Counted from the first letter of the stretch, positions 1 to 27,559 are shown. The stretch: DNA of 64,000 nucleotides from Gordius albopunctatus (GCA_964276515.1 OZ193910.1:5704001-5768000); one strand, 5' to 3'. Notes: generated by a model not told the origin, from the letters alone. A program made the numbers and translations.

Positions 1-3000
1 ATTTTGTTTCCTCAGGCACCACCATATTAAATCGCGGGGGACCGTGTCATAAGCTTTCTCCAAGTCAATAAAAACCATATGTAGGTCTTTCCTCTTTTCA
101 CCATACTTATCCATCATTTGTCTTAGGGCGAAGATTGGGTCGATTGTGGATTTGCCGGCCACGAATCCGAATTGATTAGCCGATATTTCCACCTCGTCTT
201 TCAGCTTTGTTACTATGACCCTTTTCATAAGCTTCAAGTAGTGGCAAGTTAGCTTGATACCTCTGTAATTGCGGCAGTCCTGAGGGTCTCTTTTGCCTTT
301 AAATAAGGGTATACTCGTGCTTGCTCTCCATTTATTAGGGATACGATCTTCTACCAATATCTTGTTAAGGAGGTTCGTCATGGTGGTGACTCCTTCTTCA
401 CGACATACGAGCAATGCTTTCATGGGTATTCCATCTGGACCATTTGCTTTTCCTTTTTGCATCTTGTTCATTTCTCTCCTAACCTCATTCTCCTGAAAGA
501 GTTCGACCATACTTATATTTGGCTCAATTTCGGGAAGGGGATTCTTGTCATTTGCAATATTCATAAGTTTCTTAAAATATCCTTTTCATCACTTCTTTCG
601 GCTTGAATAAGGTTTGACCCTTCTCGCTTTTGACTATTTTAAGAACTCCGACATCGCGACTTTTCTTCTCCCTTATCTCGGCCAATTTTTACATAAGCCT
701 ATCGCCCCCTTTATGATCGAGTTTGTTTGCCATCTCGGTGTACGCGGCATTCTTCGCTTTTGCAACGGCCTATTTTGCGACCCTCTTTGCGTACCTGTAC
801 TCTTGATAATCCTCCGCCTTTTTTGATTTGTCACCGTCTATATAGATTTTTCTTTCTTACGATGAAATCTTTAACCGATTGATCCCACCACCATAGTTCC
901 CTATTCATAGCTTTACCTCCTTTGGTCTGCCTAGAACACGAATCGCTGTTTTCTTAATGTCCTTAGATAGCGTCTCCCAGTCTTCGTCTACGTCCCTTTG
1001 CAACTTACTTGCCCGCAAGAGTGATGAGACTTTTTGTTGGTATTCTTTGTTCGTCGACGTATCCTTTAGCCTTTCGTATCGAATTCGTGGTCCATAGACC
1101 TTTCTTCTTTAGGGAAATACTCTTCTGTCAAGATCCATAACAAGGGGACGATGTTGCCTGGCGATTTCTTCTCCCTGTATTACTTTGCAATCCTTGATAC
1201 TCCATAAGTCCTTTCGCCGTATAAACAAATAGTCGATTTGACTAAAATGCTTCCCACTTCTATAGGTCACAATATGATCTTCGCGCTTTTGAAAATAGGT
1301 GTTAACGATCGCCATGTCATATGCTTGGGATAATTGGAGAAGTTTTTCACCTTCTTTGTTCTTCAGACCATGCCCATAGCCTCCATAATTGCGTTCATAT
1401 CCGAGGCGATCTTTCCCAACGTGAGCGTTGAAATCTTCCCCAATAATTAGCCTTTCTTCCTGTCCTATTCCTTGTATTTCCTTTTCCAATGAATCGAAGA
1501 ATATGTCTTTCTCTGATTCCAAACATCCAATTTGGGAAGCATATGCTAGTGTTGCGATCTCGTCTCGGTCTCGAAAGCAAAATCTCGTCTCGGTCTAGAA
1601 CAATCTCGTCTCGACGAGAATTCTCGTCTCGTTTCGACTTTTAAAAATTATATCAAATATTTTTTTCTGACTCTTATAAATTATTATATAAGATATAAAT
1701 GGGTCAGAATGGAACCAAATATTTATCTCAAACCCCAAAACACAAGATAGATGGGTATCTTAAGGTAGGAAGCATTATTAGAGGTGTTATATACTACTTG
1801 CCTCGAAGGTATAAAGTTGCTAAACAATAACTTTTATTTCCTGGCTAAGCCTCAATAAAAGGATAAAGTTCATAATATCATCATATTTTAACATAATGAA
1901 TTTATTTAGATCTTACTTAATAACGATAAAATAGTGACAAAAATTAGAGAGTAAACTTTTGAAGATATCATTATTTATAACAAGTAATTATCTGGACAAT
2001 GTAAATACAATAAAATAGGCATTTTTGTCGGAAGAACATAAAAGTTTTAAGATCTAACGTTAATTGCACACATATAACTTCAAAACATAAAATTTTATTT
2101 AAAGCACAATTTACACTTCCCCATTTTATTTGATTCATCCTGGATACTGTGAAATGTTAGAGCAGCTTGCTCTTTTTTGTGTTGGATGATGAACTTGTTG
2201 CGCATAAACTCATTATAGGTCTAAAAATTTATATTATATATATGGTATACAAATAAGTAACAAATATTTAATTAATACTCAAATACCCTAAGGGCTACTA
2301 ACACTATGTTGTCTATTAAGATTTTATTACAAATTTGAAATTTGCGCGAAGCGGATAAATAGGTGCGTAAGTAATGTACTATCAAAAGTTTCAAAATGAT
2401 ATTAATTTGCATTTAATACCCTTAATTTAAATCTCAAAAAATAAAAATTCTTAATTAGCTAAATGAAAACTTAATAGATAAAAATTAAAGTCGAGATCTC
2501 GCCGATAAAATCTCGTCTCGTCGCGAGGTCAAAATTCTCGTCTCGATCTCGACTCAATTTTTAAAAATCTCAGACGAGACCGAGATTTTTCTCGGTTTTT
2601 CCGCATCACTAGCATATGCGCACATAACGGTTAGGAGTCTCCCTTGATCTGCAATCTTCATCCACATTAACCTGTCGGAACAACGCTTGACTTCCATCAC
2701 CTTGTCCTTGAACGATTCTCTTAGAACAATACTGACCCCATTTCTACGATTTGGTGACCCACTGTAGAAAAGCTTGTATCCTTCTCCTAATTCCCGAACT
2801 TTCGTTCCGTTCCACCTCGTCTCTTGTAGGCAGGCGATGTGTACCTTTCTTCCTTTTAGCATCTGTGCAACCTCGATGCTCTTCCCCGTCAACGTTCTCA
2901 CATTTCAGCACGTAATTCGCATTCTTTCCACAACTAGTTTCCTTAACCGCCTTTGTTGTGAGTTAGGCAGTAACCCTAGTGTATTTTTCACATTGCACGG

Positions 3001-3108
3001 GCGAGGTATGCAGTGCGCATCGTTTGTGGTGGACGCCCTAATCTTTTCTTGTAAATTCTTGTTTGAAACTATCATAATTTTGGAATTGATTTTTATAGCC
3101 GATTTCCG
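1..3108 (-). mobile_element. RTE-clade non-LTR retrotransposon (APE endonuclease + start of RT), decayed, runs off window start, interrupted by a hAT MITE
   Basis: Minus-strand ORFs 2554-2901 (IACLQETRW...GYKLFYSG...NGV) and 1109-1522 (IIGEDFNAHVG...SQIDY...QHRPL) are typical APE segments. Bases 1-500 translate on minus to RT N-terminal motifs (ANGPDGIP, NYRGIKL, NQFGF, FIDLEKAYD). Stops and frameshifts are present. Confidence 0.9.
1547..2611. mobile_element. Non-autonomous hAT-type element (MITE) inserted in the RTE LINE
   Basis: Perfect 8-bp TSD GCATATGC (1539-1546 and 2612-2619). 10-bp TIR TAGTGTTGCG/CGCATCACTA with 1 mismatch. Subterminal TCTCGTCTCG repeats at both ends. The paralogous LINE near 35549 shows the empty site. 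Confidence 0.92.
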
Positions 3109-3109
3109 A

Positions 3110-3323
3110 CAAATGAGAAAAATTCGCTTCCCAATATTGAGCCAAACATAAGTATAGTCGAACTATTTCAGGAGGATGAAGTAAGGACAAAAAAGTTGTA
3201 AAAAGAAAAAGCTAATGGCCCAAACAGAATAAGTATTGAAACATTGCTCGGATGTCGCGAAGAACTAGTTACGCCACGAAGAACCTTTTCAACAAGATAT
3301 TGGTAGAAAAGCAAATTCCTAAT
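3110..3323 (+). mobile_element. RTE LINE RT fragment, part 1 (5' flank of the hepadna-like insertion)
   Basis: Aligns by eye to the reverse complement of ~335-553 and ends at ...NKILVEKQIPN. Confidence 0.8.
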
Positions 3324-3355
3324 CGTTCCTCTCGCGTACTACTTACCCCTTGACG
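3322..3355 (+). repeat. Left 34-bp direct repeat of the RT element
   Basis: ATCGTTCCTCTCGCGTACTACTTACCCCTTGACG, 32/34 identical to 6002-6035. Confidence 0.95.
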
Positions 3356-3459
3356 CTCGTTAGTGTGAAAATTTTTTTTATTTTACCCCCTTAAACGACA
3401 ATATCCCCTTAAATAAATATTTTTCCAAGTCCACTTCCCAAATTAACACTACCGAGCCC

Positions 3460-4092
3460 ATGAACTCCCCCAATGATAAGGATTCGATCACTGCAAACGC
3501 TGAAGGTAACGCTAATAGGTCGGATCCAGCAATGACACTGATCCTGAATAGGCTAGCCGAAATGGATGCCAAGATCGAAAGAAATATCCTGGGAAGGAGC
3601 GGAGAAACGATCGATATGGCGGATCGGCCACATTGGGCACCGTCCCAGCCGACATAATCGGTGACTATGACCCGCACGGAACTGGAAGCACTCCTTGCGA
3701 GCGAACGAGCTAGAGCAGTCAACGTCCCCAGCTCTAACGTTGAAATACTCAAGTTACGTCTCAAGGGCCTTAGGGAAGCAGTAGAGACAAATTATTCAAT
3801 TTCGGCTCATCAGAAACATGAAGCTGAGTTCTTTCTCAGTCTTGGGGAATTGATCAATGACTACAACAAGACAATAGACAAATTCTCGGACAGAGTCCGC
3901 ACCATTGCCATGGCTTCGTATTACGGTTGGCAAGCCGTCACAGGAAAATCAAAAGATTGGGCAGAGAAGATGGGCATGGGGCAGTACACTGAGCCCGTCC
4001 AGCTTTTTCGGCCGCCTAATCGGTTCAATGCTCCGAGGAAGAAAGGCTCTTACTCGAAAGGGCCGCCTGCGCCTCTGGCGGAACGAACGTAG
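3460..4092 (+). pseudogene. ORF1, gag/core-like protein (~210 aa) with one internal stop
   Basis: ORFs 3460-3657 and 3661-4092 are in the same frame, separated by a single TAA. Predicted helical, with motif RVRTIAMASYYGWQAV and a basic/Pro-rich C-terminus. Confidence 0.6.
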
Positions 4093-5927
4093 ATACGTGA
4101 GGACGGTAGCGGTGACTCTCGGCTGAGGTGTTAACACGCCGAGGTCGGTGAGGGATGGTTCTATTCCTACTTGGCTTAATAACTACACTGCCATTGCTAG
4201 GAGTATCGCTTTGAATACCATCTCTCCCGACGATGGTCCGGAGTTGGAGGAGCCGATTCATCCTACCAACGCGCCGCTACCCGAACGAACTAATGTGCCG
4301 GGACATCTCCATGAACAATGGACGGAGGTGGGCATGGATAGCGACAGCCCACCTATCATTAGCGAACCGTCCAATATCCCCTCTTTCCCCTCCCACCCCT
4401 TATCCTCTTATTCACATTTTACTCTACCCCTATCCATACGGACCACAATTCTGAAACCGCACTTCAGGCAATCCCGATTTACCCATAGGATTGCGACGCA
4501 TGGCTTCAAGCCTAAATTGTCACGGATGACCATAGCCGACAACAAGGGAAGATATCACATCCCTCGATATGTAAAAGCTATCCCCCGTGAGCACAAAACC
4601 CTGGTTGACGAAATAGTGCTGAGCAATGTTGTTCGTAGAAACACGGAGGCAATTCCGTCGCCAATGTATTTTATTCACAAAAGTGACGGTTCCCCTCGTC
4701 TTATTGCGGACCTCTCGCAAATATCAAAAAATTTCATCAAATATCCTTTCACTTTAAAGTCGATTCCGCTTATCGCTTCATCTCTATCGGAAGCCCGTAT
4801 ATGACCAAGATCGACATGAAAGCTGCCTTTTTCTCCATTTCTCTGCCACCAGAATCCTCAAAATTCTTTGGATTCCGTTATAGAAGGAACAAATATTCGT
4901 ACAAAGTGCTACCCATGGGGGCGGGCTTCTCGCCCTTTGTTCTACAGCAGGTGATGCTTGACTTGTGTATTAAGGCCGTAACGAAGTGTAAGTACAATGT
5001 CTATCTGGGCAACATACTCATCTATGGTCGGTCCCAGACGATGGTCAAAGCAGACACCCGAAGATTCCTCTACTTAGCTAAATTCTGGAACCTGACAATC
5101 AACTACGGAAAATCGTCAGTAGAACCTCGTACCATCATGGACTATTTGGGTATCAATGTCAACTTAGAGAATCACACACTCAGGGTGAACCAGAAGTTTG
5201 TGTCAAAAATCGATGCCGCCATACAAATTATGTCCCACTTCCTGGCCACCAACAAGCTTCCACATCCCTTGGTCTCACAAACCTGCCTTGGAATTCTCAC
5301 GCATTACACATACATGCTGACAGGCTGGTCAAATTTCCTCTCTCAAGCGTACAACCTATGCCTATCAGGAGACCCCATACGATTCCACACGGATTGGCTG
5401 ATCAAGAAAATACTTATGGTACAAAACCACTTATCCACTCCTTTCCGAATGAAATACGAGACCAACGGTTTCACAGCCGGTGATGCTTCCACGTCCCACA
5501 TTGGCTTATTTTATCGAGGATCTGTCCTCTCCATTGCCAAGGGGGACGCTCTCGCTATCTTCGGCTGCCAAGACCTTATTCCCACTATCAACCTACTTGA
5601 ACTCGTCCCCATCCCCCTCGCTTACATTAAGGCCATGATCGACACTCCACAAATAAACACCAAGGTCCTTACGGACTCAAAAAGAGCGTTTTAAATCATG
5701 AAAAAGGGGTCGCACATGCGCCGCACCTGCAACTAGCTTTCACAAAAATCTGTAACAAGATGGGCCTAGATCCCATGCTCCGGATGAAGCAGAATATGGA
5801 GTGGGTATCTACCGACTGTAACCCGGCCGACGTACCTTCCCGGGAAAACTTCTTCGACGATGCCCAACTAGGAAGGATAGTTTTTTGGTCACGCTCGAAC
5901 CTTTCACACACCCAGAACAACAACTAG
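4028..5927 (+). pseudogene. ORF2, reverse transcriptase + RNase H (pol), frameshifted, catalytic motif mutated
   Basis: RT motifs YFIHKSDGSPRLIADLSQIS, KIDMKAAFFSI, KVLPMGAGFSPFVLQQ, YLGN (at the YxDD position), YLG. RNase H motifs GDAS, INLLEL, LTDS, and WVSTDCNPADVPSR (shifted frame, ending TAG 5925-5927). Breaks at 4124 (TGA), ~4800 (frameshift) and ~5692-5710 (stop and frameshift). Start position uncertain. Confidence 0.88.
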
Positions 5928-6001
5928 TTTGCTGAACGATAAAGACCATGAAAGATCCTAAGGATTACACTATATCTTATGACATGTTTTTTACCACTTT
6001 T

Positions 6002-6035
6002 ATCGTTTCTCTCGCGTACTACTTAACCCTTGACG
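6002..6035 (+). repeat. Right 34-bp direct repeat of the RT element
   Basis: ATCGTTTCTCTCGCGTACTACTTAACCCTTGACG, followed by a partial third copy (TCGCGTATTACT, ~6038-6049). Confidence 0.95.
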
Positions 6036-6135
6036 TTTCGCGTATTACTCATAATTATATATCTTTTTGTAATGTATGGATAGATATAAAATAAAACAAG
6101 AGATAGGGGGATATCCTGAATAGGACTCTCCCTTA

Positions 6136-6790
6136 TACTTATTTAAAGGCATAGGAGACTGGCAGTTACAGAGGTTTCAAGCTAACTTGCCACTCCTTGA
6201 ATCTATGGAAAGTATCTTAGTAACAAGGCTGAAAAACAAGGTGGAAATATCGGCTAACCAATTCGGATATGTGGCCGGAAAATCCACATTTGACCCAATC
6301 TTCGCACTAAGACAAATGATGGATAAATATGGGGAAAAGAGAGGGTACCACATGGCCATTATCGATTTGGAGAAAGCTTGTGACACGGTCACTCTCGATT
6401 TAAAATGGTGGTACTGGAGAAAACAAAATATCCCTGATGCATATATACGGCTTATGAAAAAATATTTAAGGACAAATTCGTGCGTTAGGACGAGAGTTGG
6501 AGACTTTAAACTTTTTCGAGTTAAAATTGGATTACATCAAGTATCTGCTCTAAGTCCTTGTTTATTTAATTAAATTATAGACACGATAACAAGAGACATC
6601 CAAAAGCATCACAATGGTGTATGAAATATGCCAAATCAGGTATTCAAAGAAGTAGAAAAGTGGACAAAGCGCTTAGCTGGATATGGTTTAAAAGTCGAAG
6701 ATAGAAAAGCGGTATACGTGGAAATTAACGTTACAGGCACCCCTGCTTTAGGTATGAAGATTTGTTGCTGTTTGATGGAAGGGAGACATG
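6136..6790 (+). mobile_element. RTE LINE RT fragment, part 2
   Basis: ORF 6187-6573 contains NQFGYVAGKST, IDLEKACD and GLHQVSALSPCLF. It continues the LINE broken at 3323. Confidence 0.88.
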
Positions 6791-8570
6791 AGTGAAGTAA
6801 AATTGCTTTAGTTATTGGCACGGAGGTAAGATTAAAGTAAAATTGCTCTACTGAGCCATTATTTATAGTTCACACGGCGTGGTTAAATATGGTGACAGAG
6901 TGAATGCTTGGGGTGTTGATGAGTGATGATAAGCTATCAAATGTTATGGTAAGATACGTACCACGGGGTGACGCATCTTTATTAGAATCGCAATTGGTCA
7001 CCAGCTAAAACGGTCATCAACGGTGAAAATGTTAATTCAGTTGATGGAAGTAGTAGAATTCAAACGCCTACCATCCCTTGAATATGACGTATTTGATTTG
7101 TGTTATTAGGTGCTTGTGCTGCAGAAATTGCTAAGTCCTTGGTCATTAAAGGAGGCCATTTAGGTTTGTAATGCTACTGTTAGAGACCATTTGCGGGATA
7201 GTAGAAATTTTGAGTGGTCGAGCAGACGTTGCAATTGTTGATTTTAATACGAGTGTATGAGGGCGTCGACGTTTTCATATGGAATAGTAACCATGTAAGT
7301 AAGCAGCTTGTGTTGTTCACAGCATTCGGACACGTTTGATTAGGTTTGATAGGTTGATTTTTGCAACTCGATGTTTCGTATTGATGCTGGTTTGACAAAG
7401 TAGAGCCCAATGTGCATTATTTTAACCAGAAAAAAACAATGAGTCCGATATTTAAAAAAAGTTCTGGGTGAGGAATGAAAAAAATTCCGTTTATCCAAAA
7501 GCGAGGTCACTAATTTTTAAGAGGAGTTATGCTTATTATAAAAAATATGGTATAGGGGAGAGGGTCAAAGGACAGTGGTTGTATGCTAGGCGTAAAGTGC
7601 GATATATTGTTGGAGAAAGAGAATTCGAAATATGAATATATCGCATGGAATACATTTAAATATATTGCATAGAATACATTTAAAAATATCGCGGTATTAA
7701 ATAATAAGTATATTAAGTAGTAAGTATTTAAATTTAAAAAAGTGTGAACAAGACGGGAAAACACTACATCATCGTTCAGAAAATGTAATTTAATTAACTC
7801 TCTACAGAAAGGATTGCGTTTCGCAACTAGCAAGTAAAAGTTACTTATGATAGCGGTAAATTTGATTAAATATTTCAATCAATAAGTTAAACAGTCATTT
7901 AGGCACACCTTGCAGAAAGCTCAAACAGTTATGAAAGACGCCATAGGCAGGAAGGCTAGTAAAAGAAAGGCGTACTCGCTATAAGCCAATTATTAATGAT
8001 TTAATCATTATATTTATTAATTGCTATGCAATTTATGGGCTCGCTTTTCGTTGCTTATATTTTAATTTTTTAATGAGCCAGACCTATGTGTAGCCAACTG
8101 GGGAAAAAATAAATAAGATATTTAGACATGCTATGTTATTAAGAGCAGATTATTACATTAGAGTGATAAACTTCCAAACATTTTTAACCATTGACAATAA
8201 GACGCACAAATTTTTTAATAAATCCCGTTAGTGCTAAATCTTTGTGACCTGGATCATATATTTTAATTAGAAGGTATTTAACCAATCGCTAAGTTTATAA
8301 CCACATAAATGGCACATCTTTATATTGCAGTTTCACGAGAAGAAAAATATTTAAATAAATATAAGAATTAACACAATTAAACTATAACAATTCACAATAA
8401 AGTTTGTCTAGTGATATATATCAAGATTGGCTGTGTAATTAATAAAGAAAATAACTTGAATATGAATATGCATATATATGGACATAAAAACAATTAATAT
8501 AACCGGATATTGAGCAATTAAGTATTAACCGTTATGATTAAGAGATCAAAGATATAACAGTAACATTGTG

Positions 8571-11500
8571 TCAAAAGGCAGCATCAAAATCATCTGAGTT
8601 ATAGCCCCTGAGTGAATCTTTGGCAAATAAAGGATTTACCTCATCCAAAAAATCCCGCTCAGCATTGCATTGTAGACCAGTTTCTGATTTAGATTGGGTA
8701 TCAGTGTCGTACTTGCAATAATCTTCAGATTGAAATATTTCATCTAAAAAGGATAGGGAACCTAGCCTAGACCTTGAATCATTGTTTTGGTTATTAGTAA
8801 AGGATATAACACCCGTTTCTCCGTTTAGAGGATTATTTAGAGGGCTGAACATGAGATCATCTTGGAGAGAATCTTAAAATAACATTTAACGAAAAAAAAT
8901 TAACTAAAATACTGAATTCAAAGAGGCGTTCTTCTTCTTCGCAAGTCTCTGGAAAAGTAGCAAATGTAGAATGAGCGTAGTTTCTAAGGTCGTCAAAATT
9001 TGTAGTATACGAGCAAATGCCAGATGTGGGCGTAGGTGAAGAGATCAATGATCCATCTGAGGATGGGCTTAAAACCCCGGGGTTACCATTCCTTCTATAG
9101 GTTAGGCTAAATGACGCAGAGACCGCTATGTTTTGATTACCGTCTTTCTTAAGCGAGCTATTTATTGACACATAACTTCGCTTGGGTATTAAATTTTCGA
9201 CGTTGGATTTAATTGGATAAAATCCCGCAGTGTCTAATGAACTAAAACAATGGAGTTTGGCGATATCTCGACTATTTTGAGACTTATCTATATTATTGCT
9301 TCCACCATTTATCATGTAGTTGGCATATGCAAAATTATTGAGAAGCAGCTTGTTAGTAGCATCGTTCAAAGTATAATTAAATTTTAGGGGCGATAAGCAA
9401 GATTCATAAATTGATGAAAACGTTTTGTTTGAATGAAAAATATTTGCAGCAGTATTAAATTGTTGTGGCAACGAAAGAGGTTCTTTAACTTTATTTAAAA
9501 TCGTAAAATAGGCTGAATTCTCATCACTATCTCTGGTATTTAGCAAGGATAAGTTAGGTGTGGCACTTAAGTAGCCCTGATCTATTGAAGTTCCTGGTGA
9601 GGTAATATTTGAGCTTATAACTTTTGTTTTGAGTAGAGGAGGCAGCGTTTGAAAAATTGGTGAGCTTGAAAGGTTATTTTGATAATTCAATTTATTCGTA
9701 GTTTTTATGTCTTTAAACACATTACAACTATTTGGGATAGCTGCCAAAGCTTCATTATTTGTACATGTTGATGGCGCTGAATTTAGAAAGTATATTACAA
9801 AGTTTTTAAATATAGCAAACAGATGCTCTAGCTAGCTAATGTTGACATACAGATAAATGTTATTATTAATTAATTTACCGATCTTGTAACTTTGTCCCTG
9901 AGTCTTAAGCTTTTTGTTATGAAATCTTCGCATCTTATTTTCTCTGGATCTCCTATTTTGAAACCACACCTGTAATATAAAGTTTAACGTGTAAGTATTC
10001 GCTCAATCTAATTATTATTATTATAGTTATGATTTTTATTTAATAAACGTGTATTTTAGCCTCTTCTATGTTAATTCTGAAAGACAATCGTTTTTTCTCC
10101 TCGGAATTTGGGTAATGATTTTCTTGAAATAGATCCTCCAAATTATTAAGTTGTTCCTGTGTAAACTGTGTCCGTTTTCTTTGTTTGCTTTGAGAAATGT
10201 TATACACACTTACACCGTTACTTTGGTTATTACTGTTTTGATCATTGATGTAGTTTGAATAATGATCATCGTTGTTATTTATCTGAGGACTAGAACTTGA
10301 ATACTTACCGCATTTATTCATCATTGAATTCATTTGCAACCATACATCATCGTCTTTTAAATCTAATATTTGTGAAATCAAAATTACATAAAGATGCTTT
10401 ATAAAATTAGTAAGTTGTATGAAAATGAGATAGAAACTAAATAACGACTACATTTTACATAATAAAAATGCAAAAAGAGGGCATTGAGAAGATAAATTTA
10501 AAGACGAAACATTTAATTCTTAGTTCTTATAAGGTTACTGTCTAAATTAATATACAGATCATGTCGTCAAAATGATTTAACTAACAGTTTGTTGCACTAC
10601 CGACTCAATATAGTCATAAGGGATAGCATTAGCACGAATATTCCACATTTTTAGAAGTTAGCCACAAAAATAATTTTGTGTCCATTTTATTTACGTTTAA
10701 AATCACCTTTGATATGTAATTTGTATCTTTTATTATAAAAACATATTTAAAGTTCTACCTAGGATCACATTCATCTCGTATAAGTTTAATTTTAATTTCA
10801 TCTGTAAAGTAAAATTTTAACACAATTTACTGATAAAACCATATTTGATTTGATATTGAACATGGTAGCCGGGGGAGGAGGGGGGACGGTAACTGGTTCA
10901 AATAGCGTTTAAAATTAAAAAAAATTAGCCTTATGCCTTCCCCATGACTAAACATTAATTAATATAGAAACTAATTGAAAAATTTATATGATAATCTAAA
11001 TTTTTATTCTTTAAATTGAATATTAATTTGAAATTGAATATTCATTTCTCATCACCAAATTCAAATTTATATGGACATTATAAAATATTTTGCAAATCCG
11101 TTTAAGACAAATGTGTAATTTAATTAAATTTTTTGAGGGAGGTTATTAGAGAGTTAGCCCAAAATCCTCAAAACCTTTATTCTGATATAACTTTTAATTT
11201 CATTTTGATATTGAGTCTTCAGGCTTGAGGCTAACGACCTGCATAATTTATTTTAAGACCCGGCCCGAGCCCAAATTTTTAAATTTTCAGGGACTTTGGT
11301 CGGGCCCGGAATTTTAATAAATAAAGAAATCTAAAAATAACCCTAAAACATGTTCCTCGTATAAATTTATTAAATAATTTAACGCATAAATTAAGACTAT
11401 AAATGAATTTAACTTCAACTAGCGTAGGTAATATCACTAATTATTATCTGCGATATCCTCATCTTCAGAAACTAAATTTAACTTTTGGCAATTTTTCTAA

Positions 11501-14336
11501 TTCAATCGAGGTTAACATTCTAATGCTTTCTAATTGGGGCCATAGGAATTATGATATTTTAGGATTATAATTAATTTAGGGTGGGGCTGAACTACTTCAA
11601 AGTCACTTTTTCCAACACAAACCCGACCCAAATTTTTTTAATTTCAACCTGAACTCGACACGAATTTTAAAATTTTCAACCCGACACCGGCCCGAAAGCG
11701 TTTAAATTTTTTTGAGAACGTGTCAAATTTTGTTACTTTACGCGAGAGTAAGAAAAATTGAGATGTGTAAAATTTGATCTGCAAATTAAAGTGCAATTAA
11801 TGAAACTAATTGGTACCACAGATTTTGACTACTAAATTTATTTGAATCATTTATTATGTGCTGTATAGATATGATAGCATCTACAATATCGTGCGTGTCG
11901 CAACCTCACCTTTCTCTCCTTTAAAATTCGTTTTTATTAATATACCAATAATAAATCATATTAATTTGAAAACCATTTAATAAATTTAACTTACTTTTAT
12001 GTTCGTTTATGAATTTAAATATATTTTATGTAGTTCTTTACTCTATTTGAATACAATTAAAATATAAAGTATTATAATAGTTATAATAATTTTGAAAAAA
12101 CAAATTATTATATTTATTAATCCCTGTAATAAATTATATTAATATAAAATACATAGTTTCGCAAATGAACCATTTGATAAATTTTAACTTACTTTTATGT
12201 TGTTATCAATATATATTTTTATAGTTTAAATTAATAATAAACTTCCCTTTTACACTATTTAAATGCAAATTAAAAATATTTTATTGAAGTATTTACCATT
12301 CACGAGTCAAATTTAAATTTGCGTGCAATTTAAATAGTCAGCTTTAAATAAGGAAAACAAAATTAATTAAAGGAATAAACTTAATTAGTTATACATTTTG
12401 ATATTGATTCAAAATATTATACACATGAGCATTAATTTAAAAGATATGTCTCCCATATTGCAATGTAAGATTCAGAACCTTCCCGACCCAGTATTTTAAA
12501 AATTTCAAACCGGGCGGGGTCAGGTTTCGGGTCACCCGTTCAGGTCTCTAGGTTGAACTACAAAATATTTACATTATGTCATTAAATTAAAGCTGAGGTT
12601 AATAATTTGTACAAATTTAACATATATTATTTTAAAAATCCAGTTTATCGAACAGTGGCTAGTTAATCCTAAAATTGTTATATAAAAAAACTTAGCGCTA
12701 TATAGCAACTGCCTTATAAAAAGTAATGTCCCTTAGCTACCATTTTCTTGGCTTTAAATGCCGTGCTACCCTCAAAAAAAGCGCACAATGGTAACGCGTT
12801 GCGCATTTTTAATTTTTGACACATACAAAACTCGTACAATCTAAAATTTTTAAGCTATATATTTATAAATCAAACCTAAATTTACATTCTAAGGCTGATT
12901 GATAGACTCCAACGCATAAAAATGGTGTATTGTATTTAAAAAATTTTGCATAAGATATCGAATGATAAAATATCAGATTTTGTAAAATAATTTTTTTAGG
13001 TTAAGCAAGTAACGAAGAGGCATTTCGAGGAACAGTCATGTGTAAAATATTTACTAAAATTCGTATATTTCAAATGATAGCTAAAAACACTACGACGACC
13101 CTTATTTTATAACTGTCAACCATTCAAACAACCTAAAAAGTTATTAATTCACAGCATTTATTCGTATTGTAATTGGCGGCCTTCATTTTTAGTTTATGAC
13201 GTAAAAGATTAAGATTAAAAAACAACATTACAACATATCTAGTTCGAAAAAGTGTCATATCTTGCCATATTGTGGTGGGGTATAATCCGGGCCCTTATCA
13301 AATAATAATTATTAACTGAAAGTTATTCAATAAATGATAAGAGAACATATTTTTTATTCAAAATAAACTGTAGTCTCTGAAGCCAAACATTTAAATTTAC
13401 ATTTTCTTGAAAAAATTAGAATAAATCAGCAAAAATTATTGATACTAAAGAAAATAAATGATCAATAAAAATCACTTTAAAAAAATTATATTGAGTATGA
13501 TGTTAAGAAGGTTCCACCGACATAAATTGTTAGTTCTTGAAACTAGGATTATGTAGCATATGTAAACTTAAAGGTAATTTTTTTAGATAAACGATTATTT
13601 CTTTATGGTCACAAGATCATTGATAAACATGTAATTTTTAAGCTTTATAATTTTTAAATATATAATAAACATCTTAAACAAAGGCCGCTAAATTTTTAAC
13701 AATAACCTGTAATTTACCTGCTAGCGTATGAGTAAAATTATTAAGATTGCCTTTTGGGGTTGAGGACATGGGTTTATAATTCAAGGTACTAAATGAACAA
13801 TAAGGATCTTGGCCTTGGTAACCTAATTTATCTGCCCAATCCACCAAGGAAATTTGTTTGCTTGTCGATGTTATAAGTTTCGAAAATTGATTAGCATGAA
13901 GATATTTATCACTTAAGTTTTTGCTTCCATACACATTATAAATATTGGATGCACCGTGTGATTGTAAATCTATTTTATTGAGTCCGTAACTTTCGCCTTT
14001 ATTTTCATTTAAAGATAAACAGTTAGGTCTCATAGTTGAGGATAAAAGATCAAGGTTTTCATATGAAAAAGGTGGGCTATAATTTAGGTATCGAGATGAA
14101 TTCGGTAATATATTGGGATGTGCAACGGATGTGCAAGTAACGGGAATGGGGAGAGACTGCGGATTAGGGATTTTTACACAGGAATTACTTTGCTCAACAA
14201 CAAATAATTCGTTATTAATGAAACGTTGATTTGAAAATACGGATATTTTAGGCACATAACTAAGGTTTTCATCAAGCTCTCTTTCAGAGACTGGCTCGAA
14301 GTCCAGGCCTGCATTCTCAACCTTAATCCGCTTCAT
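8571..14336 (-). CDS. PRD-class (Q50 paired-like) homeodomain transcription factor, ~729 aa, 5 exons
   Basis: Model complement(join(8571..8872,8913..9776,9879..9969,10049..10362,13718..14336)); all introns GT-AG and phase-consistent. Homeodomain KQRKRTQFTQEQLNNLEDLFQENHYPNSEEKKRLSFRINIEEAKIH/VWFQNRRSRENK has the canonical PRD-class intron between residues 46 and 47. First and last junctions are less certain. Confidence 0.85.
11597..12550. mobile_element. Degenerate hAT-family non-autonomous element (ACCCG-repeat family) in homeobox intron 1
   Basis: Ends CAAAGTCACTTTT...ACCCGACCC and GGGTCACCCGTTCAGGTCTCTA match the ends of the 22286-22949 element and the 23094 terminus. Confidence 0.7.
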
Positions 14337-14755
14337 TGGTGGCCCAGGGTGAATAAGCCATAAGTCTCAGGCCAAATATGCAAATCTTTTCATGACAGCA
14401 AAAATAGTCTATTAATGGGTTTTGTAAATTTAGTTAAATAGCTGTAACTTTATATATAAGCACGATTAAATTCAAAAAGTGTCGTTTTTGAAACATAGGT
14501 GACCACAAGTTGTGTCCTCGAATTCCCCCTCAAGGTCATTGTCAGTGTCACATAATTAGCATAAAGAAAAGTTAGAACTTAAGCGCGAAGCAATCTACAA
14601 TTTCTACACCTCGGTATCTGAAATTCATTTTAGTAGTGACCGGTTTGGTGTCGCATATTAAAAGCATGCCATTTGTATCATACTGTAATTCCTAGCAAAA
14701 CATATATGTAAAAGTGTTTTAAAGTTTAAGTTCACATTTAAAGTTATTTATTCTC

Positions 14756-17716: not shown

Positions 17717-20086
17717 CTCGGGCCTTCGGCCCTCGTGGGAAGGGGGAAGGGGAGGAGGGGAAGGAAGGGGGAACTCATCTACACTCCGTATAAATGTATC
17801 ATATTTGCTATGCAATTTATGGAAATACTTACGTGAATATTGCAAAACGAAGGTTGGAAGCACTAAATAAGTGTATATGCCAAATATCATAAAGGGGGAG
17901 AGAGGGAGCGAAGGGGAAGCTTTATGGTTAGTTAAATTCTACGGGAGTTGTATTACCAAAAAGTCATAATAGCAATGGTAGGAACAGGAATAATCATAAT
18001 AGTCAAAAAAAACGAAAAAAAAATTTTCGAATCACATTTTGGCCAAAGGTCATTTTTTCCATTGGTCAGCAGCCAGGACACGGTAAAAGTGGATATAAAT
18101 TCATAATAGTCAAAAAAAACGAAAAAAAAGTTTTCGAATCACATTTTGGCCAATGGTTATTTTATTCCATTGGTCAGCAGCCAGCGGACGGCCAAAAAGT
18201 CATAATAGCAATGGTAGGAACAGGAACAATCATAATAGTCAAAAAAAACGGAAAAAATAATTTCGATTCACATTTTGGCCAATGGTCATTTTTTTCCATT
18301 GGTCAGCAGCCAGGACACGGTAAAAGTGGATATAAATTTATAACAGTCAAAAAAAACGAAAAAAAATTTTCGAATCACATTTTGGCCAATGGTCATTTTA
18401 TTCCATTGGTCAGCAGCCAGCGGACGGCCAAAAAGTCATAATAGCAATGGTAGGAACAGGAACAATCATAATATTCAAAAAAAACGAAAAAATAAACTCG
18501 GATACACATTTTGGCCAATGGTCATTTTTTTCCATTGGTCAGCAGCCAGGACACGGTAAAAGTGGATATAAATTCATAACAGTAAAAAAAAACGAAAAAA
18601 AAGTTTTCGAATCACATTTTGGCCAATGGTCATTTTATTCCATTGGTCAGCAGCCAGCGGACGGCCAAAAAGTCATAATAGCAATGGTAGGAACAGGAAC
18701 AATCATAATAGTCAAAAAAAACGGAAAAAATAATTTCGATTCACATTTTGGCCAATGGTCATTTTTTTCCATTGGTCAGCAGCCAGGACACGGTAAAAGT
18801 GGATATAAATTCATAACAGTCAAAAAAAACGAAAAAAAAATTTTCGAATCATATTTTGGCCAATGGTCATTTTTTCCATCGGTCAGGAGCCAGCGGACGG
18901 CCAAAAAGTCATAATAGCAATGGTAGGAACAGGAACAATCATAATAGTCAAAAAAAACGAAAAATAAACTCGGATACACATTTTGGCCAATGGTCATTTT
19001 TTTCATTGATCAGCAGCCAGCGGACGGCCAAAAAGTCTTATTATCATTGATAGTAACAAGAACAATCATAAGAGTCAAAAAAACTCCGGGATTCTAACCC
19101 AAAAACTAGATAAATTGCATAGCAATTATTAAAAAGTATAGGGTAATTATCAATGTTAACCTATTCAAAAACGAACAAAAAATTTTGATTTATTTGGCCA
19201 ATGGTAATTTTTTTCAATTATCAATGTTAACTTATTCAAAAAGGAAAAACGAAAAATTAGGATTTATTTGGCCAATGTTCATTTTTTCATTGGTCAGTAG
19301 CCAGCGGACGGTCAAAAAGTCATATTATCAATGGTATTAACAAGAACAAAATATTAAATTAATTAAAAAAATAAAAATTTTGCCCTCTCCGGGATTCGAA
19401 CCCACATTAAATAGAGGCATAAGCCTTTGGAGGGGAACAGGGAACCATATAAATAGAGCCATAGGCCCTTGTAGGGGAGGGCATAGGGTAATTATCAATG
19501 TTAAACTATTCAAAAACGAAAAATTAAAAATTTCGATTTATCTGGTAAGTGGTCATTTTTTCATTGGTCAGTAGCCTGCGGACGGTCAAAAATTCATATT
19601 ATCAATGGTATTAACAAGAACAATATATTAATTTAATTTAAAAAAAATTAAAATTTTTGTCCTCTCCGGGTCTCGAACCATCAATTTAGAACGTTCGCCG
19701 GGATTCAAACCCACATTAAATAGAGGCATAAGCCTTTGGAGGGGAACAGGGAACCATATAAATAGAGCCATAGGCCCTTGTAGGGGACGGCATAGGGTAA
19801 TTATCAATGTTAAACTATTCAAAAACGAAAAATTAAAAATTTCGATTATCTGGCCAGTGGTCATTTTTTCATTGGTCAGTAGCCTGCGGACGGTCAAAAA
19901 GTCATATTATCAATGGTATTAACAAGAAAAAAATATTAATTTAATTAAAAAAAAAAAAAAAATTTTGTCCTCTCCGGGTCTCGAACCCGCAACCTCCAGG
20001 TCGGGAAGCTGGTGTAAATAACTTGGTAGACGGACGGACGGACGGACGGACAACCAAAAACGAGCCCATAAATTGCATAGCAATTA
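17717..20086 (-). mobile_element. HINE-like element, inner copy nested in an A/T-run of the outer copy
   Basis: Same hairpin start and subTIR at 17805. (GGAC)n microsatellite at ~20029-20051. Terminal GCCCATAAATTGCATAGCAATT at 20064-20085. The outer repeat unit resumes right after. Confidence 0.75.
17956..19080. repeat. Tandem satellite array, ~236-bp unit (dimer of ~127 and ~109 bp subunits), ~4.5 copies
   Basis: Unit start CCAAAAAGTCATAATAGCAATGG at 17956, 18192, 18428, 18665 and 18901; partial variant at 19028. Confidence 0.95.
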
Positions 20087-22285: not shown

Positions 22286-22949
22286 TAGAGCCCTGCACGG
22301 GTGACCCGAAAGTCGGGTCGGGTGGGGTTCGGGTTAAAAATTTTAAAATACCTTAGGGTCGGGTCGGGTTGAAAATTTTAAAACGCTTTCGGGTCGGGTC
22401 GGGTCGGGTTGAAGGTTATAAATCTTACATTGCATAACAAACATATCTTTCACGTGGATTTTTCCGGTTGGGAGGAATGTGCAGATGAAAATGTTCATGA
22501 AAAAGATGAACTTGAGGAATATATTCATTATAAACTTGCAAAAAAGGATGAAATATACGACACATTCGAATGGTGGAGAATATATTCTTATAAATATACT
22601 GCTTTAGGGTTATTGGCTCGTAAATTTCTGGCCATACCTGCCTCCTCTGCGTCCAGTGAGAGATCTTTTTCTACAGCTGGACGAATTTTAGAAGATAAGA
22701 GGTCGAATTTACGGCCGGAAATTGTAGACGCTATTATATTTATACATAATTATAATAATTCTCTCAAATAAATTTATTATTCAAATTCGTGGCGTCAAAT
22801 TGTTTCTGAAAGCTGCCAATTTATTTTGTCAAATCAATTTAAAATATTTAAAACGCTTTCGTGTCTGGTCGGGTTCGGGTTGAAAATTTTAAAACGCTTT
22901 CGGGTCGGGTCGGGTTCGGGTTGAAAAAAAGTGACTTTGCAGGGCTCTA
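22286..22949 (+). mobile_element. Internally deleted hAT transposon retaining the C-terminal dimerisation domain
   Basis: TIR TAGAGCCCTGCA/TGCAGGGCTCTA and perfect 8-bp TSD CCCGGACC (22278-22285, 22950-22957). ORF 22409-22771 contains EWWR...LARKFLAIPASSASSERSFS...RSNL. Confidence 0.93.
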
Positions 22950-24546: not shown

Positions 24547-26206
24547 GCTCTCTAATTCAAACTATGGACCTAGTTGGCATATTTAGAAACAAATGAAAAG
24601 AGCTTTTTATAAATAGTGCAACCTTGCAGGAAGACCACAGGCGAAATTGGGTTGGGTTAAGTAAGATAATATAATTGTTGATGCTTTTTCTAACTACAAA
24701 CTTAATACCAAGGAGATTTTTAATGCATTTTTTTTAATCTAAAACCGTCTTAGATATTGAATTTATATAATTTTAATAAATTTTTGTTTGATAGTATTAA
24801 TTATTTATCGAAATTTTTTTTAAATCAACCCTCCCCTCTCTCCTTTAAACAACCCTGCCTGTGACGTTGTGTATTTTTAAATTCGTGATCCTCAAATCTG
24901 GCCATTTTAGAGCGTAATGCCTCACATATTCTGAACGTATGAAATTTTATATAAGGGGCGGCAAACGGATTTTAGCATTTAGCGTAAAATTTCTTTCCCT
25001 CTGATATCCTCTTCAAAAACTCTAGTAATTTTTGTTTATTTTTAACCCTTACACACTTAAGTTTTCTTAAAAAAATATAAAGCGCTTTTGATTTAATCAT
25101 ATTAAATAGGGCGCTTTTTAAACCTACCCTTTATCTTGGCATTGTGCAAGCTGCAGGAAGTTATATAAATATTGTTTTTGCGATCAGACATTTTTTCAGG
25201 TGTTTCATTTGTTTAAAAACAAACGTTAAGTGGTGGTATTTTGATAAGCCACAATATGCACTTAGTATAAGGTGCTCTTATATAATTACACAAAAACGTC
25301 TTGTCATCACGATAAGTATGAATGGAAAACTATTGTCATAATTATTATTATACATTTAATTTAGGGTTTCGAGGATTTTGTTACTCAATGTCTAGACTTT
25401 TGTTTATATTGGACTAGAGTGAATTATGTTTTAACGTTATATTTTGGTTAAATAAAGATATGCTTAGAGGTAAATGGGGGGGGGGGGAGAAAAAAATCAA
25501 AACATAATGGTAGAACATCTCGAAAGGACTTTTAATTTGACAAGCTCACGCATATGGTGTCAACCAGCACTGAGAAGAATACACTATGCTTCAATTAATA
25601 TTTGTTATATATTTATTATTTAACTCCTCACGTGGTTTATTTGGTTTAGTGAATGTCAACGTAATCAGCAACAGCAAACCCTGTTGTAGCTTTACTAGCC
25701 TTAATTATTAAAATAACTTTAATATTCTGATAATCAACGAAACGTGTTATGGGTGGATAAGATGCAGAGACATCTGAGTCCGTCGTCCACATATAATCCC
25801 GTTCCCGACATTGGTGAAAGTGAAATCTTGGTGAGTCTATGTCAAGCTCAAGGGTGAGAGGCAAATATTATCTCACACCACATCCTTAAATTAAAGCTTA
25901 ATCTTGCTTTATCGCCCTCCCCGACCCCCTCCCCTCAGAATATTTTTAATTGATGCCATGGTAGGGCATATGTATGTAAGTAAGACAATAACTCTGCTAT
26001 TATTATATGTATTATTATTGTTTATTTGTATGGACACGTATGTAAATTGATATAAGCTATGTTAATTCATCGGTAACATTATATATGACATATGAGAATT
26101 AAACCGTAACGCAAAGAATGAGGAGTTGCGATAATATTTTTAGAGTTCATTTTAGCTAAATATATCATTAATCATTCAAAACAAGCATTTATACAAAATC
26201 GGAAAA

Positions 26207-27559
26207 ATGGAGCATATACTCAGTAATCAACATAATAGATATAATCTGCACACATACATGTCGATTAATAATAAAGAAATTGGGACATCCGACGATTCTC
26301 AAACCTCATCTTCAAAATCGCCGATGTTGTCGACCACCCCTTCACCTTTAAAATCGAATCCAATGTCAAATAGTTCCGATGACAAAAACGAAGGAAACAT
26401 GGGTTGTGAAAAAGCTAATGAGGATATCTCAGATATTACAAATTTATCCAAGAGTTACTTGCCTAGCTTTAATATTGAGATCTCCAATCACGAAAACCCT
26501 ATCGAACCTGAAACAATGGCTGATCGAAAAATCGATTATAAATTCAAACAATACTTAAATTACACGAAAAAGAGGAGAATCATGCAAAGCAGTGACACGA
26601 TTGATTCCAAAAATTATATATCTAATGAGCCGCTGAACCTCGAAAAAAGAAAGGATATAACTATAAAGGGGGAATCCGTTAGTAAGGCATCGCCATCCAA
26701 ACCCCCAAAAAAGTTGTCAAAAATAGATGATTATGTGGACAATAACCACTTATCACCTCAAGCAATGCCATATTTACCCTGCATTTTTAATAAGCCATTC
26801 ACAGAAATGCAATATCCTATTCAGCCTTTCACTAACAATTTAGGACTAATGGCACTTTCTATGATATATGGAAATCAAAATTTTCCCATGCCCCATCAAC
26901 CCAATGCGAACCATACAGTAGGCAATTCCAATCAGCTTTTGGAGCAATATTTACCAACTCAGGACTTTACTATTAGTTCAATGGTCACTCAAACAATGGA
27001 TAAGATTAATATGGATTTGGGGGCAAAAGTTCAATCTGCAAAAAAGAAAGATGAAAAAAGTATGAATCTTGGAAACGAACCAGGTGGTGTTAGTAAACGT
27101 AAGAGACCTAAATCAATAGAGTCAAATTTACAGTTTAAAGAAAAACTCAGAGAGCCGACATTCGAAAAATCTGAAGATTTAAACTTGATTACCACGTCAA
27201 AGAAAGAAGTTACCATTTTTGAATCGTGCGATCTCAATGCATCTAAAATAAAAATTGAAAACGAAAATACTAGCGGGTCATCCTCAAACAACGAAGATAA
27301 TGTTATTTCTAAAATTAATAAAAGTCTTGAGGTAAGGAGACAGAATAATAGTGGTTTGAGAGATGAATGTTATTGGGAGAGGAGAAGGAAAAATAATGAA
27401 GCAGCCAAAAAATCTCGCGATTCTCGAAGGGCTAAAGAAGACGAAATAGCGATGAAAGCAGCTTTTTTGGAGCAAGAAAATCTAAAACTCAGGGCTCAAT
27501 TAGCTATGATGAAAAATGAGACCGCAAAATTACATTATTTGCTATTTAGCCATGTATAG
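26207..27559 (+). CDS. gt: giant/CES-2-like PAR-subfamily bZIP transcription factor, 450 aa, single coding exon
   Basis: C-terminal b[47 protein letters not shown]. The KEDEIA..AA.LE..N signature is typical of giant/CES-2-like proteins. EPLNL resembles a PLDLS motif. Orthology to gt is not proven. Confidence 0.88.

What the first reader, a model, noticed from the sequence alone, without database searches (positions are those of the whole stretch)
3322..6135. Integrated ~2.7-2.8 kb retroelement with a hepadnavirus-like polymerase in an invertebrate genome
Seen: pol motifs PRLIADLSQIS, KIDMKAAFFSI, KVLPMGAGFSPFVLQQ, GDAS, INLLEL, LTDS and WVSTDCNPADVPSR, in that order. Established: HBV polymerase has SRLVVDFSQFS, SLDVSAAFYH, KIPMGVGLSPFLLAQ, ADAT, IHTAEL, GTDN and YVPSALNPADDPSR, whereas typical DIRS/LTR RTs have LPFGL..AP at motif B. 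The PMG.G.SPF.L.Q and D.SQ.S matches are therefore notably hepadna-like. Seen: pol ends 75 bp before the right repeat, leaving no room for an integrase or recombinase, and no envelope-like ORF is evident. The repeat-to-repeat unit (2680 bp) is close to nackednavirus/hepadnavirus genome size. Inference: a member or relative of the invertebrate hepadnavirus-like retroelements (HEART-type), or an endogenised non-enveloped hepadna-like virus, possibly a new lineage.
Basis: partly seen in the sequence, partly recalled or inferred. Interest (0 to 1): 0.9.

Follow-up and report, generated by a model that had tools for sequence, protein, structure and literature searches.

The report
Hepatitis-B-like retroelement without integrase
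A decayed 2.8-kb mobile element inserted into a LINE, likely in a horsehair worm, has a reverse transcriptase-RNase H related to that of hepatitis B virus but no detectable integrase, recombinase or priming domain, and it groups with dozens of unnamed relatives that likely form the stock from which hepatitis-B-like viruses arose.

Summary
The element is real. It runs about 3324-6132, splits an RTE LINE with about 20 bp lost and no target duplication, has a 34-bp direct repeat, a 210-codon ORF1 and a broken RT-RNase H gene that ends 74 bp before the right repeat. Diverged copies exist in two read sets of one study. Motif B alone is not hepadna-specific, and plain BLAST favours DIRS-type RTs. 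RT-RNase H trees, however, place it outside DIRS, PAT and Ngaro (AU p 0.006-0.016). It sits on one branch with hepadnaviruses and some 70 unnamed polymerases that stop right after RNase H. Its nearest relatives are two Gordionus proteins. Three metagenome contigs share its plan and its ORF1 family, so it is not a one-off deletion. No terminal protein, core or envelope was found, so it is not a Blubervirales member. It is best read as a HEART-like, integrase-free retroelement whose DNA copy is likely captured at host breaks. Published HEART sequences could not be put in the tree, and the 2018 HEART paper could not be read.

The parts
3110..3323 (+). Left flank: RTE LINE fragment that the element interrupts
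   Evidence: 77% identical to another RTE copy at window 334-554; homology stops at 3323
3322..3355 (+). Left direct repeat (34 bp); its first 2 bases are shared with the RTE target (microhomology)
   Evidence: a read contig suggests the repeat reaches about 3374 in another copy (joint 3374 to 6065)
3356..3459 (+). 5' leader, closed by a 12-bp imperfect inverted repeat
   Evidence: fold of 3322-3460 z -2.85, 1 of 200 shuffles as good; 1 of 7 stretches folded
3460..4092 (+). ORF1, 210 codons, one internal stop at 3655-3657; helical, with an R.R..A...YGW motif and a basic C-terminus; likely the particle (Gag-like) protein
   Evidence: profile of ORF1 from L067, L075, L079 alone hits only this ORF, E 4e-4, 1 of 525 window ORFs; most other read contigs differ at 3655; no Pfam hit
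3878..4801 (+). pol, 5' part: frame overlapping the end of ORF1, stop at 4124-4126, Pro/Ser-rich spacer, then RT N-terminus; no terminal-protein homology
   Evidence: residues 118-223 of the piece 4127-4801 are 36% identical to P0026
4144..4231 (+). Long bulged stem-loop just after ORF1; candidate cis-acting RNA element
   Evidence: z -3.4, 1 of 200 shuffles, best of 7 stretches; lowest of 91 sliding windows; lies in the deepest read bins; no Rfam match
4798..5691 (+). pol, middle part: RT motifs A-E (motif C decayed at 5002-5013), thumb, and RNase H first three acidic motifs
   Evidence: Pfam RVT_1 E 9e-16; 33% and 37% identical to P0026 and P0041
5694..5927 (+). pol, 3' part: RNase H end (NPAD.PSR) and 27 further residues; no methyltransferase or recombinase follows
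   Evidence: 41% to P0026 over 44 aa; RNase H profile scores
5928..6001 (+). 74-bp spacer before the right repeat; its last 33 or more bases precede the repeat and 5' leader in other copies
   Evidence: joint 6035 to 3414 with 67 letters on the shorter side
6002..6035 (+). Right direct repeat (34 bp, 94% to left)
6036..6132 (+). 3' tail with AATAAA at 6090, a third copy of a 12-mer from the repeat (6038-6049) and a terminal hairpin
   Evidence: joined to the repeat in a diverged contig in both runs
6133..6430 (+). Right flank: RTE LINE resumes, about 20 bp of target lost, no target-site duplication
   Evidence: 81% identical to the RTE copy at window 1-307; Pfam RVT_1 in 6124-6570

Best explanation
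This is a decayed chromosomal copy of a two-gene retroelement (ORF1 plus RT-RNase H, no integrase, recombinase, protease or terminal protein found) from a HEART-like branch that also holds the hepadnaviruses; it likely copies a terminally redundant RNA into DNA inside an ORF1 particle, and that DNA is likely captured by host repair at chromosome breaks. Shown: the anatomy, the insertion into an RTE with about 20 bp lost and no duplication, diverged copies in reads, the tree position, and the same plan in three unrelated contigs. Inferred: transcription from the left repeat to the AATAAA in the tail; packaging by ORF1; a template switch at the repeat that yields a circle or a head-to-tail junction; end-joining into a break. 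The primer is unknown; without a terminal protein, self-priming by an RNA hairpin or priming by an unrecognised residue in the spacer are the candidates.
For: Junctions: RTE homology stops at 3323 and resumes near 6133-6138. Family: 756 and 465 contigs of two runs lie on 3324-6135 at 80% or more, 570 of 756 and 360 of 465 below 95% identity, all 30 bins covered. Head-to-tail joint 6035 to 3414 in both runs. Same plan in L067, L079 and (3' cut) L075, with a shared ORF1 family; L067 and L079 hit the hepadnaviral RNase H family PF00336. Window RNase H scores 21.5 bits on the L067/L079 profile, 11.2 on hepadna, 2.7 or less on Ngaro-, DIRS1- and PAT-like profiles; RNase H tree 95/91. RT-RNase H tree, 34 rows: window+L067+L079+hepadna 91/87, stable when either partner set is removed. 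AU rejects placement with Ngaro-like (p 0.016), PAT-like (0.010) and DIRS1-like rows (0.006). With 46 rows the branch of 29 has SH-aLRT 98 and is in 996 of 1000 bootstrap trees once one unstable row is ignored; the window trio joins YR-type rows alone in 0 of 1000.
Against: The 29-row branch has only 544 of 1000 bootstraps if row P0057 is counted. A position as sister to all 19 YR-type rows is not rejected (p 0.052). The RT-only careful tree leaves the window unresolved at the base. Branches are long and several rows have odd composition. The short-tail relatives were chosen by a profile that held the window, L067, L075 and L079, which biases sampling. The window's own RNase H has no Pfam PF00336 hit. 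ORF1 as capsid is untested (model pLDDT 52, no fold match). A simple circle cannot explain why the tail differs from the 5' leader. Both runs are one study and may be the window's source. No other insertion site was seen in full.
Confidence: 0.6

Rival explanations
1. It is a true non-enveloped reverse-transcribing virus of invertebrates that lives as an episomal circle and spreads between hosts; the chromosomal copies are dead-end fossils, as with plant endogenous pararetroviruses.
For: No integration enzyme, no target duplication. Head-to-tail joint in reads. L079 has a ~105-bp terminal repeat around a 3.38-kb unit. 26 of 28 non-Gordionus relatives looked up lie on contigs of at most 4.1 kb, 17 of 28 at 2.6-3.4 kb. 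Hepadnaviruses nest in the same branch.
Against: The joint has about the depth of single-copy contigs (1038 over 2 contigs against 655 for the exact-match contig), which fits chromosomal tandems or a longer 5' repeat. The tail is not part of a repeat-to-repeat circle yet is shared by another copy. Contigs in these collections are short anyway. No core homology. No RNA holder was listed, which is no evidence either way.
Confidence: 0.25
2. It is mobilised in trans by the abundant RTE LINE machinery (endonuclease nick plus target priming), its own RT being secondary.
For: It sits inside an RTE in an RTE-rich window; the 3' tail ends in a hairpin.
Against: No target duplication, no poly(A) or short-repeat tail, target deletion instead. 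RTE is so abundant that landing in one is expected. The two nearest relatives keep an intact RT motif C and RNase H.
Confidence: 0.08
3. It is a deletion derivative of a Ngaro/PAT-type element that lost its tyrosine recombinase and B1 repeat, leaving A1-gag-RT/RH-A2-B2.
For: The repeat-ORFs-repeat-tail layout matches what such a deletion would leave (split-repeat layout described in PMC6681497, passages). Best single BLAST scores are to DIRS-like and Ngaro-like RTs. Ngaro-like pol also ends about 30 residues after RNase H.
Against: AU tests reject all three YR subgroups. The RNase H end and profile scores are unlike Ngaro. The ORF1 profile hits none of the YR loci among 2756 ORFs of 169 loci. 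The same YR-free plan recurs in L067 and L079. No internal copy of the tail was found.
Confidence: 0.07

Closest known systems
HEART elements (Gong and Han 2018; seven Ixodes sequences in PMC12691608 Data Sets S4/S6)
   Same: Integrated in an invertebrate genome; RT basal to Blubervirales; by eye similar F.L..LP, TK.D and PF.[LM]Q boxes and the same motif A-B spacing; mobilisation mechanism stated as unresolved in PMC12440569.
   Different: Tick HEART motif B is LPFG[IL]RP, here LPMGAGFS. All seven tick rows have Asn at the last motif C position; this copy does too, but its two nearest relatives do not, so that match is not lineage-wide. Nearest named relatives are from Nematomorpha. Ends, ORF1 and insertion signature of published HEART could not be seen.
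Proto-nackednaviruses, nackednaviruses and Hepadnaviridae (Blubervirales)
   Same: About 3-kb unit; first ORF overlapping pol; RT followed by an RNase H ending NPAD.PSR near the C-terminus; no integrase or protease; one branch in RT-RNase H trees.
   Different: No terminal protein, core or envelope homology; no Rfam epsilon; multicopy chromosomal family; a 16-protein unnamed group lies closer to hepadnaviruses than this element does.
DIRS1, PAT and Ngaro tyrosine-recombinase retrotransposons
   Same: Gag-like ORF then RT-RNase H without protease; no target duplication; highest pairwise RT scores; a repeat at the 5' end and again near the 3' end.
   Different: No recombinase, no methyltransferase, no inverted termini or internal complementary region, no B1 repeat; excluded by AU tests; different ORF1 family.
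Gordionus sp. proteins XP_065317776.1 (P0026) and XP_065315139.1 (P0041), annotated 'uncharacterized'
   Same: Collinear with all three pol pieces, 33-41% identical for P0026; 100/100 clade with the window; on chromosome-size contigs.
   Different: Intact motif C; diverged enough to be separate families; their flanks could not be fetched.

Membership tests
Blubervirales (hepadna-, nackedna-, proto-nackednaviruses) | RT and RNase H related to hepadnaviral P | tested here: met
   as a stem relative, not inside the clade
Blubervirales (hepadna-, nackedna-, proto-nackednaviruses) | Terminal protein domain at the P N-terminus | tested here: not met
   No Pfam PF00242; profile of 14 hepadnaviral TPs gives no hit in 52 element ORFs; the same profile and Pfam do find it in P0154
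Blubervirales (hepadna-, nackedna-, proto-nackednaviruses) | HBc-type core protein | tested here: not met
   Profile of 11 cores gives no hit; fold test uninformative, pLDDT 52, so a very distant fold link is not excluded
Hepadnaviridae | Envelope ORF overlapping RT | tested here: not met
   Longest plus-strand ORF over the RT region in another frame is 133 aa (5082-5483), no Pfam hit
Blubervirales (hepadna-, nackedna-, proto-nackednaviruses) | DR1/DR2 and epsilon stem-loop | tested here: inconclusive
   A 12-mer occurs at 3332, 6012 and 6038; no Rfam hit; a bulged hairpin lies at 4144-4231, not at the 5' end
Blubervirales (hepadna-, nackedna-, proto-nackednaviruses) | Circular episomal genome | tested here: inconclusive
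   Head-to-tail joint in contigs at about single-copy depth; contigs cannot tell circle from tandem
HEART | RT branches between DIRS-type elements and Blubervirales | tested here: met
HEART | Groups with the published HEART sequences | not testable with these tools
   Seen only as text in PMC12691608 supplements; they could not be entered into a tree
HEART | Chromosomal, in an invertebrate | tested here: met
   RTE flanks and metazoan genes in the window; nearest relatives from Gordionus
DIRS1/PAT/Ngaro | Tyrosine recombinase | tested here: not met
   No room or ORF in this copy; longer host copies not available
DIRS1/PAT/Ngaro | RT-RNase H nests in a YR subgroup | tested here: not met
   AU p 0.016, 0.010, 0.006; sister to the whole group p 0.052
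DIRS1/PAT/Ngaro | Inverted termini with internal complementary region, or split direct repeats A1..B1-A2-B2 | tested here: not met
   A1 and A2 present, no B1 and no terminal inverted repeat
LTR retrotransposons (Ortervirales) | Protease, DDE integrase, LTRs with target-site duplication | tested here: not met
   outgroup position in all trees

The most novel reading that the evidence does not exclude
The element is a whole-length, end-defined member of a large undescribed radiation of ~3-kb reverse-transcribing elements with a Gag-like ORF1 and RT-RNase H but no integrase, recombinase or terminal protein. They replicate as non-integrating circles or particles in invertebrates and other eukaryotes. 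Blubervirales arose inside this radiation by gaining the terminal protein and swapping the capsid, which makes it the missing step between DIRS-type retrotransposons and hepatitis B virus.
Probability: 0.45. Interest if true: 0.92.

Novelty: new variant of a known kind. Interest (0 to 1): 0.8.

Why it matters
How HEART elements move is stated as unresolved, and few, mostly damaged samples exist (PMC12440569). This copy supplies both junctions, a terminal repeat, an ORF1 family and an insertion signature, so the mechanism becomes testable. The searches also expose some 70 unnamed polymerases of the same type, with hepadnaviruses branching among them. If that holds, loss of the recombinase came before gain of protein priming and of the core protein, and the origin of hepatitis B-like viruses can be studied in many living intermediates rather than a handful of tick and insect fossils.

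Tried and rejected
No whole genome is held, so no BLASTN for other copies. Word-based protein searches with the single pol piece found nothing; nor did scans of viral and metagenome contigs with it. PDB search gave only weak foamy, Ty3 and caulimovirus RT hits. Single-sequence fold of pol failed (pLDDT 33). ORF1 fold search gave 0 matches at E 0.001 or better. No RNA holder was listed. Pattern scans for DIRS, Ngaro and proto-nackedna motifs in viral contigs gave 0-1 loci, so no nackedna or published PnNV row is in my trees; P0154 stands in as a TP-bearing relative. Rejected: the Asn in motif C as a HEART marker (relatives lack it); a degraded long target duplication (far less alike than the 94% repeats); the 12-mer as DR1/DR2 (unsupported); hairpin z-scores from my own shuffle, which run low in other loci too. 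The Atlas would not read the window protein; for P0026 it gave unnamed eukaryotic clusters and hepadnaviral P at rank 20, a lead only. Earlier-findings look-ups gave nothing relevant.

Full report
Observation. The insert has 47% GC against 32% for the window. It interrupts an RTE LINE: homology to another RTE copy in the window stops at 3323 and resumes near 6133-6138, with about 20 bp of target missing, no duplication and 2 bp of microhomology on the left. The window holds no second copy, and no whole genome is held.

Anatomy. Left repeat 3322-3355, leader, ORF1 3460-4092 (one internal stop), pol overlapping the end of ORF1 and running to 5927 in three pieces, 74 bp, right repeat 6002-6035, and a 97-bp tail with AATAAA at 6090. 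Motif C lacks both aspartates, so this copy is dead. The tail has no counterpart at the left end or inside the element, so the layout is neither an LTR pair, nor a permuted circle, nor a complete split-repeat set. A bulged hairpin at 4144-4231 folds better than 199 of 200 shuffles.

Other copies. Two runs of one study hold the stretch; they may be the window's source and are not independent. On 3324-6135, 756 and 465 contigs were laid at 80% or more; 570 of 756 and 360 of 465 are under 95% identical, and all 30 bins are covered. Other contigs differ from this copy at the ORF1 stop, at the break near 4800 and in motif C, which points to copy-specific decay; the table shows 40 of 794 rows, and none for 4124-4126. 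A joint from 6035 back to 3414 has 67 letters on its shorter side in one run (28 in the other), so sequence upstream of the right repeat is followed by the 5' leader in other copies. Its depth (1038 over 2 contigs) is near that of the exact-match contig (655), which suits a chromosomal tandem or longer 5' repeat; depth here is no copy number. A second joint (3374 to 6065) shows the repeat followed by a diverged tail in both runs.

Relatives. Pattern scans gave 21 viral loci, 18 of them hepadnavirus genomes, 77 caulimovirus-type loci and 69 metagenome loci, mostly DIRS-, PAT- or Ngaro-like by motif and, for many, by a neighbouring Phage_integrase hit (52 ORFs scanned, 46 of them from the 114 non-RT ORFs listed). 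The subgroup labels are mine, from motifs and gene content. Three loci, L067, L079 and the 3'-cut L075, share the window's plan: ORF1, overlapping pol with a long low-complexity spacer, RT, and (L067, L079) RNase H ending 4-5 residues after NPAD.PSR with no further gene. L079 has a ~105-bp terminal repeat. Their ORF1s, aligned without the window, hit only window 3658-4089 among 525 ORFs (E 4e-4); a four-row profile hits no other of 2756 ORFs in 169 loci. A profile of these pols against 1.84 billion representatives returned 150 best hits. Of the 148 after the two that match L067 and L079, 73 had a whole RT-RNase H with a tail under 100 residues, 7 a longer tail, and 68 were left out as incomplete by my pattern or over 1100 aa. 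The two closest, P0026 and P0041, are Gordionus (horsehair worm) proteins on chromosome-size contigs, collinear with the window's pieces. The host is therefore likely a nematomorph; this is inference. Of 55 hits scanned, 11 match the hepadnaviral RNase H family, 1 (P0154) the terminal protein, and 0 a methyltransferase, integrase or recombinase; a recombinase in a separate ORF would not show here.

Trees (window pol read with X at breaks). RT alone, 52 rows: the window lies outside a 30-row YR-type clade (95/80) but is unresolved at the base. RT-RNase H, 34 rows (15 rows without a detected RNase H end left out): window+L067+L079+hepadna 91/87; it holds without hepadna (83) or without L067/L079 (89, long-branch warnings in both). 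AU rejects grouping with Ngaro-like, PAT-like and DIRS1-like rows but not with all 19 YR-type rows together (p 0.052). RNase H alone gives 95/91. With 104 rows under LG+G4, 80 rows (the window, 73 short-tail rows including L067 and L079, 2 long-tail, 4 hepadna) form one branch at SH-aLRT 99; 2 short-tail rows fall outside. With 46 rows under the mixture model the matching 29-row branch has SH-aLRT 98 but bootstrap 54; it is in 996 of 1000 trees when P0057 is ignored, and the window trio never joins YR-type rows alone. Inside it, hepadnaviruses and P0154 (100/100) are sister to an unnamed group (97/93), not to the window. Sampling is biased by the query profile.

What it is not. No terminal protein (14-sequence profile), core (11-sequence profile) or envelope was found, while the same TP profile finds P0154. 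It fails membership of Blubervirales and of DIRS/PAT/Ngaro, yet it works most plausibly like a pararetrovirus without protein priming.

Mechanism. Inferred, not shown: an RNA from the left repeat to the tail is packaged by ORF1 and copied by the RT; a switch at the repeat gives a circle or head-to-tail DNA; with no integrase, that DNA is joined into chromosome breaks, leaving small deletions. Whether new copies come from chromosomal templates or from an episomal, possibly infectious form is open (0.6 against 0.25).

Literature. PMC12691608 (main text parts 1-2 of 3; Data Set S6 parts 1, 3, 4, 5 of 5; S8; search hits in S4; supplementary PDF part 1 of 3): HEART is sister to PnNV, nackedna and hepadna, and is represented by seven Ixodes rows. 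PMC12440569 (part 1 of 5 and passages; supplements not available): HEART mobilisation unresolved, few samples. PMC11551314, PMC6681497, PMC12241316, PMC6282271, PMC10848233 and 10.1101/829473: passages only. Gong and Han 2018 (PMID 29924338) is not held; I saw nothing of it, and it or its supplements may already describe HEART ends and ORFs. Nine searches listed no paper on this architecture, on such elements in Nematomorpha, or on the wider radiation; subscription papers are mostly not searched.

Verdict. A real, decayed but whole-length HEART-like element with defined ends, in a likely new host phylum, and a lead into a broad unnamed group around the root of Blubervirales. New variant of a known kind; interest 0.8.

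Noticed in passing
P0033, P0040, P0046, P0051, P0056, P0058, P0062, P0063, P0069, P0074, P0076, P0081, P0084, P0088, P0092, P0131: A 16-protein clade (SH-aLRT 99), mostly with H[IL]DD at motif C and no terminal protein, that with P0082 and P0087 is sister to hepadnaviruses plus P0154 (97/93 on a subset). These are closer to Blubervirales than the window element; P0082 and P0132 have HIDN like tick HEART.
   Followed up: partly
P0154: 946-aa polymerase with terminal protein, RT, RNase H and a 403-residue C-terminal extension on a 3,004-bp contig; looks like a proto-nackednavirus.
   Followed up: partly
L079:1-3488: 3.38-kb unit with ~105-bp terminal repeat and a second 53-nt copy 123 bp away just after pol, plus a long acidic spacer; P0001 is a 52% identical relative with an intact motif C. 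Type member of a large subclade (P0016-P0039 region).
   Followed up: partly
L054:1-4910 and L071:1-4942: YR-type elements with PMG at motif B; L071 pol ends in a Dam methyltransferase. L054 has a 31-bp end overlap (possibly circular). Their likely recombinase ORFs have no Pfam hit, and in L071 it lies upstream of gag.
   Followed up: no
window 3888-4450: Read depth is roughly ten times or more that of the RT core here, which suggests internally deleted or divergent subfamilies that keep this stretch and its hairpins.
   Followed up: partly
window 1-1600, 2554-3323, 6133-6800, 34375-36019: Several decayed RTE LINE fragments on both strands.
   Followed up: partly
window 8571-14366 (-), 26156-27559 (+), 52844-53974 (+), 22382-22771 (+): Host homeobox gene exons, a bZIP gene (giant-like by recall), a RasGEF exon and a hAT transposase dimerisation fragment.
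   Followed up: no
window 17900-18950 and 41757-42638: A tandem array that reads as repeated peptide units, and a 293-aa ORF that looks like the C-terminus of another non-LTR element (recalled resemblance; no Pfam hit).
   Followed up: no
L118: Picked up by the caulimovirus pattern but groups with Ty3/gypsy rows; kept in the outgroup.
   Followed up: partly
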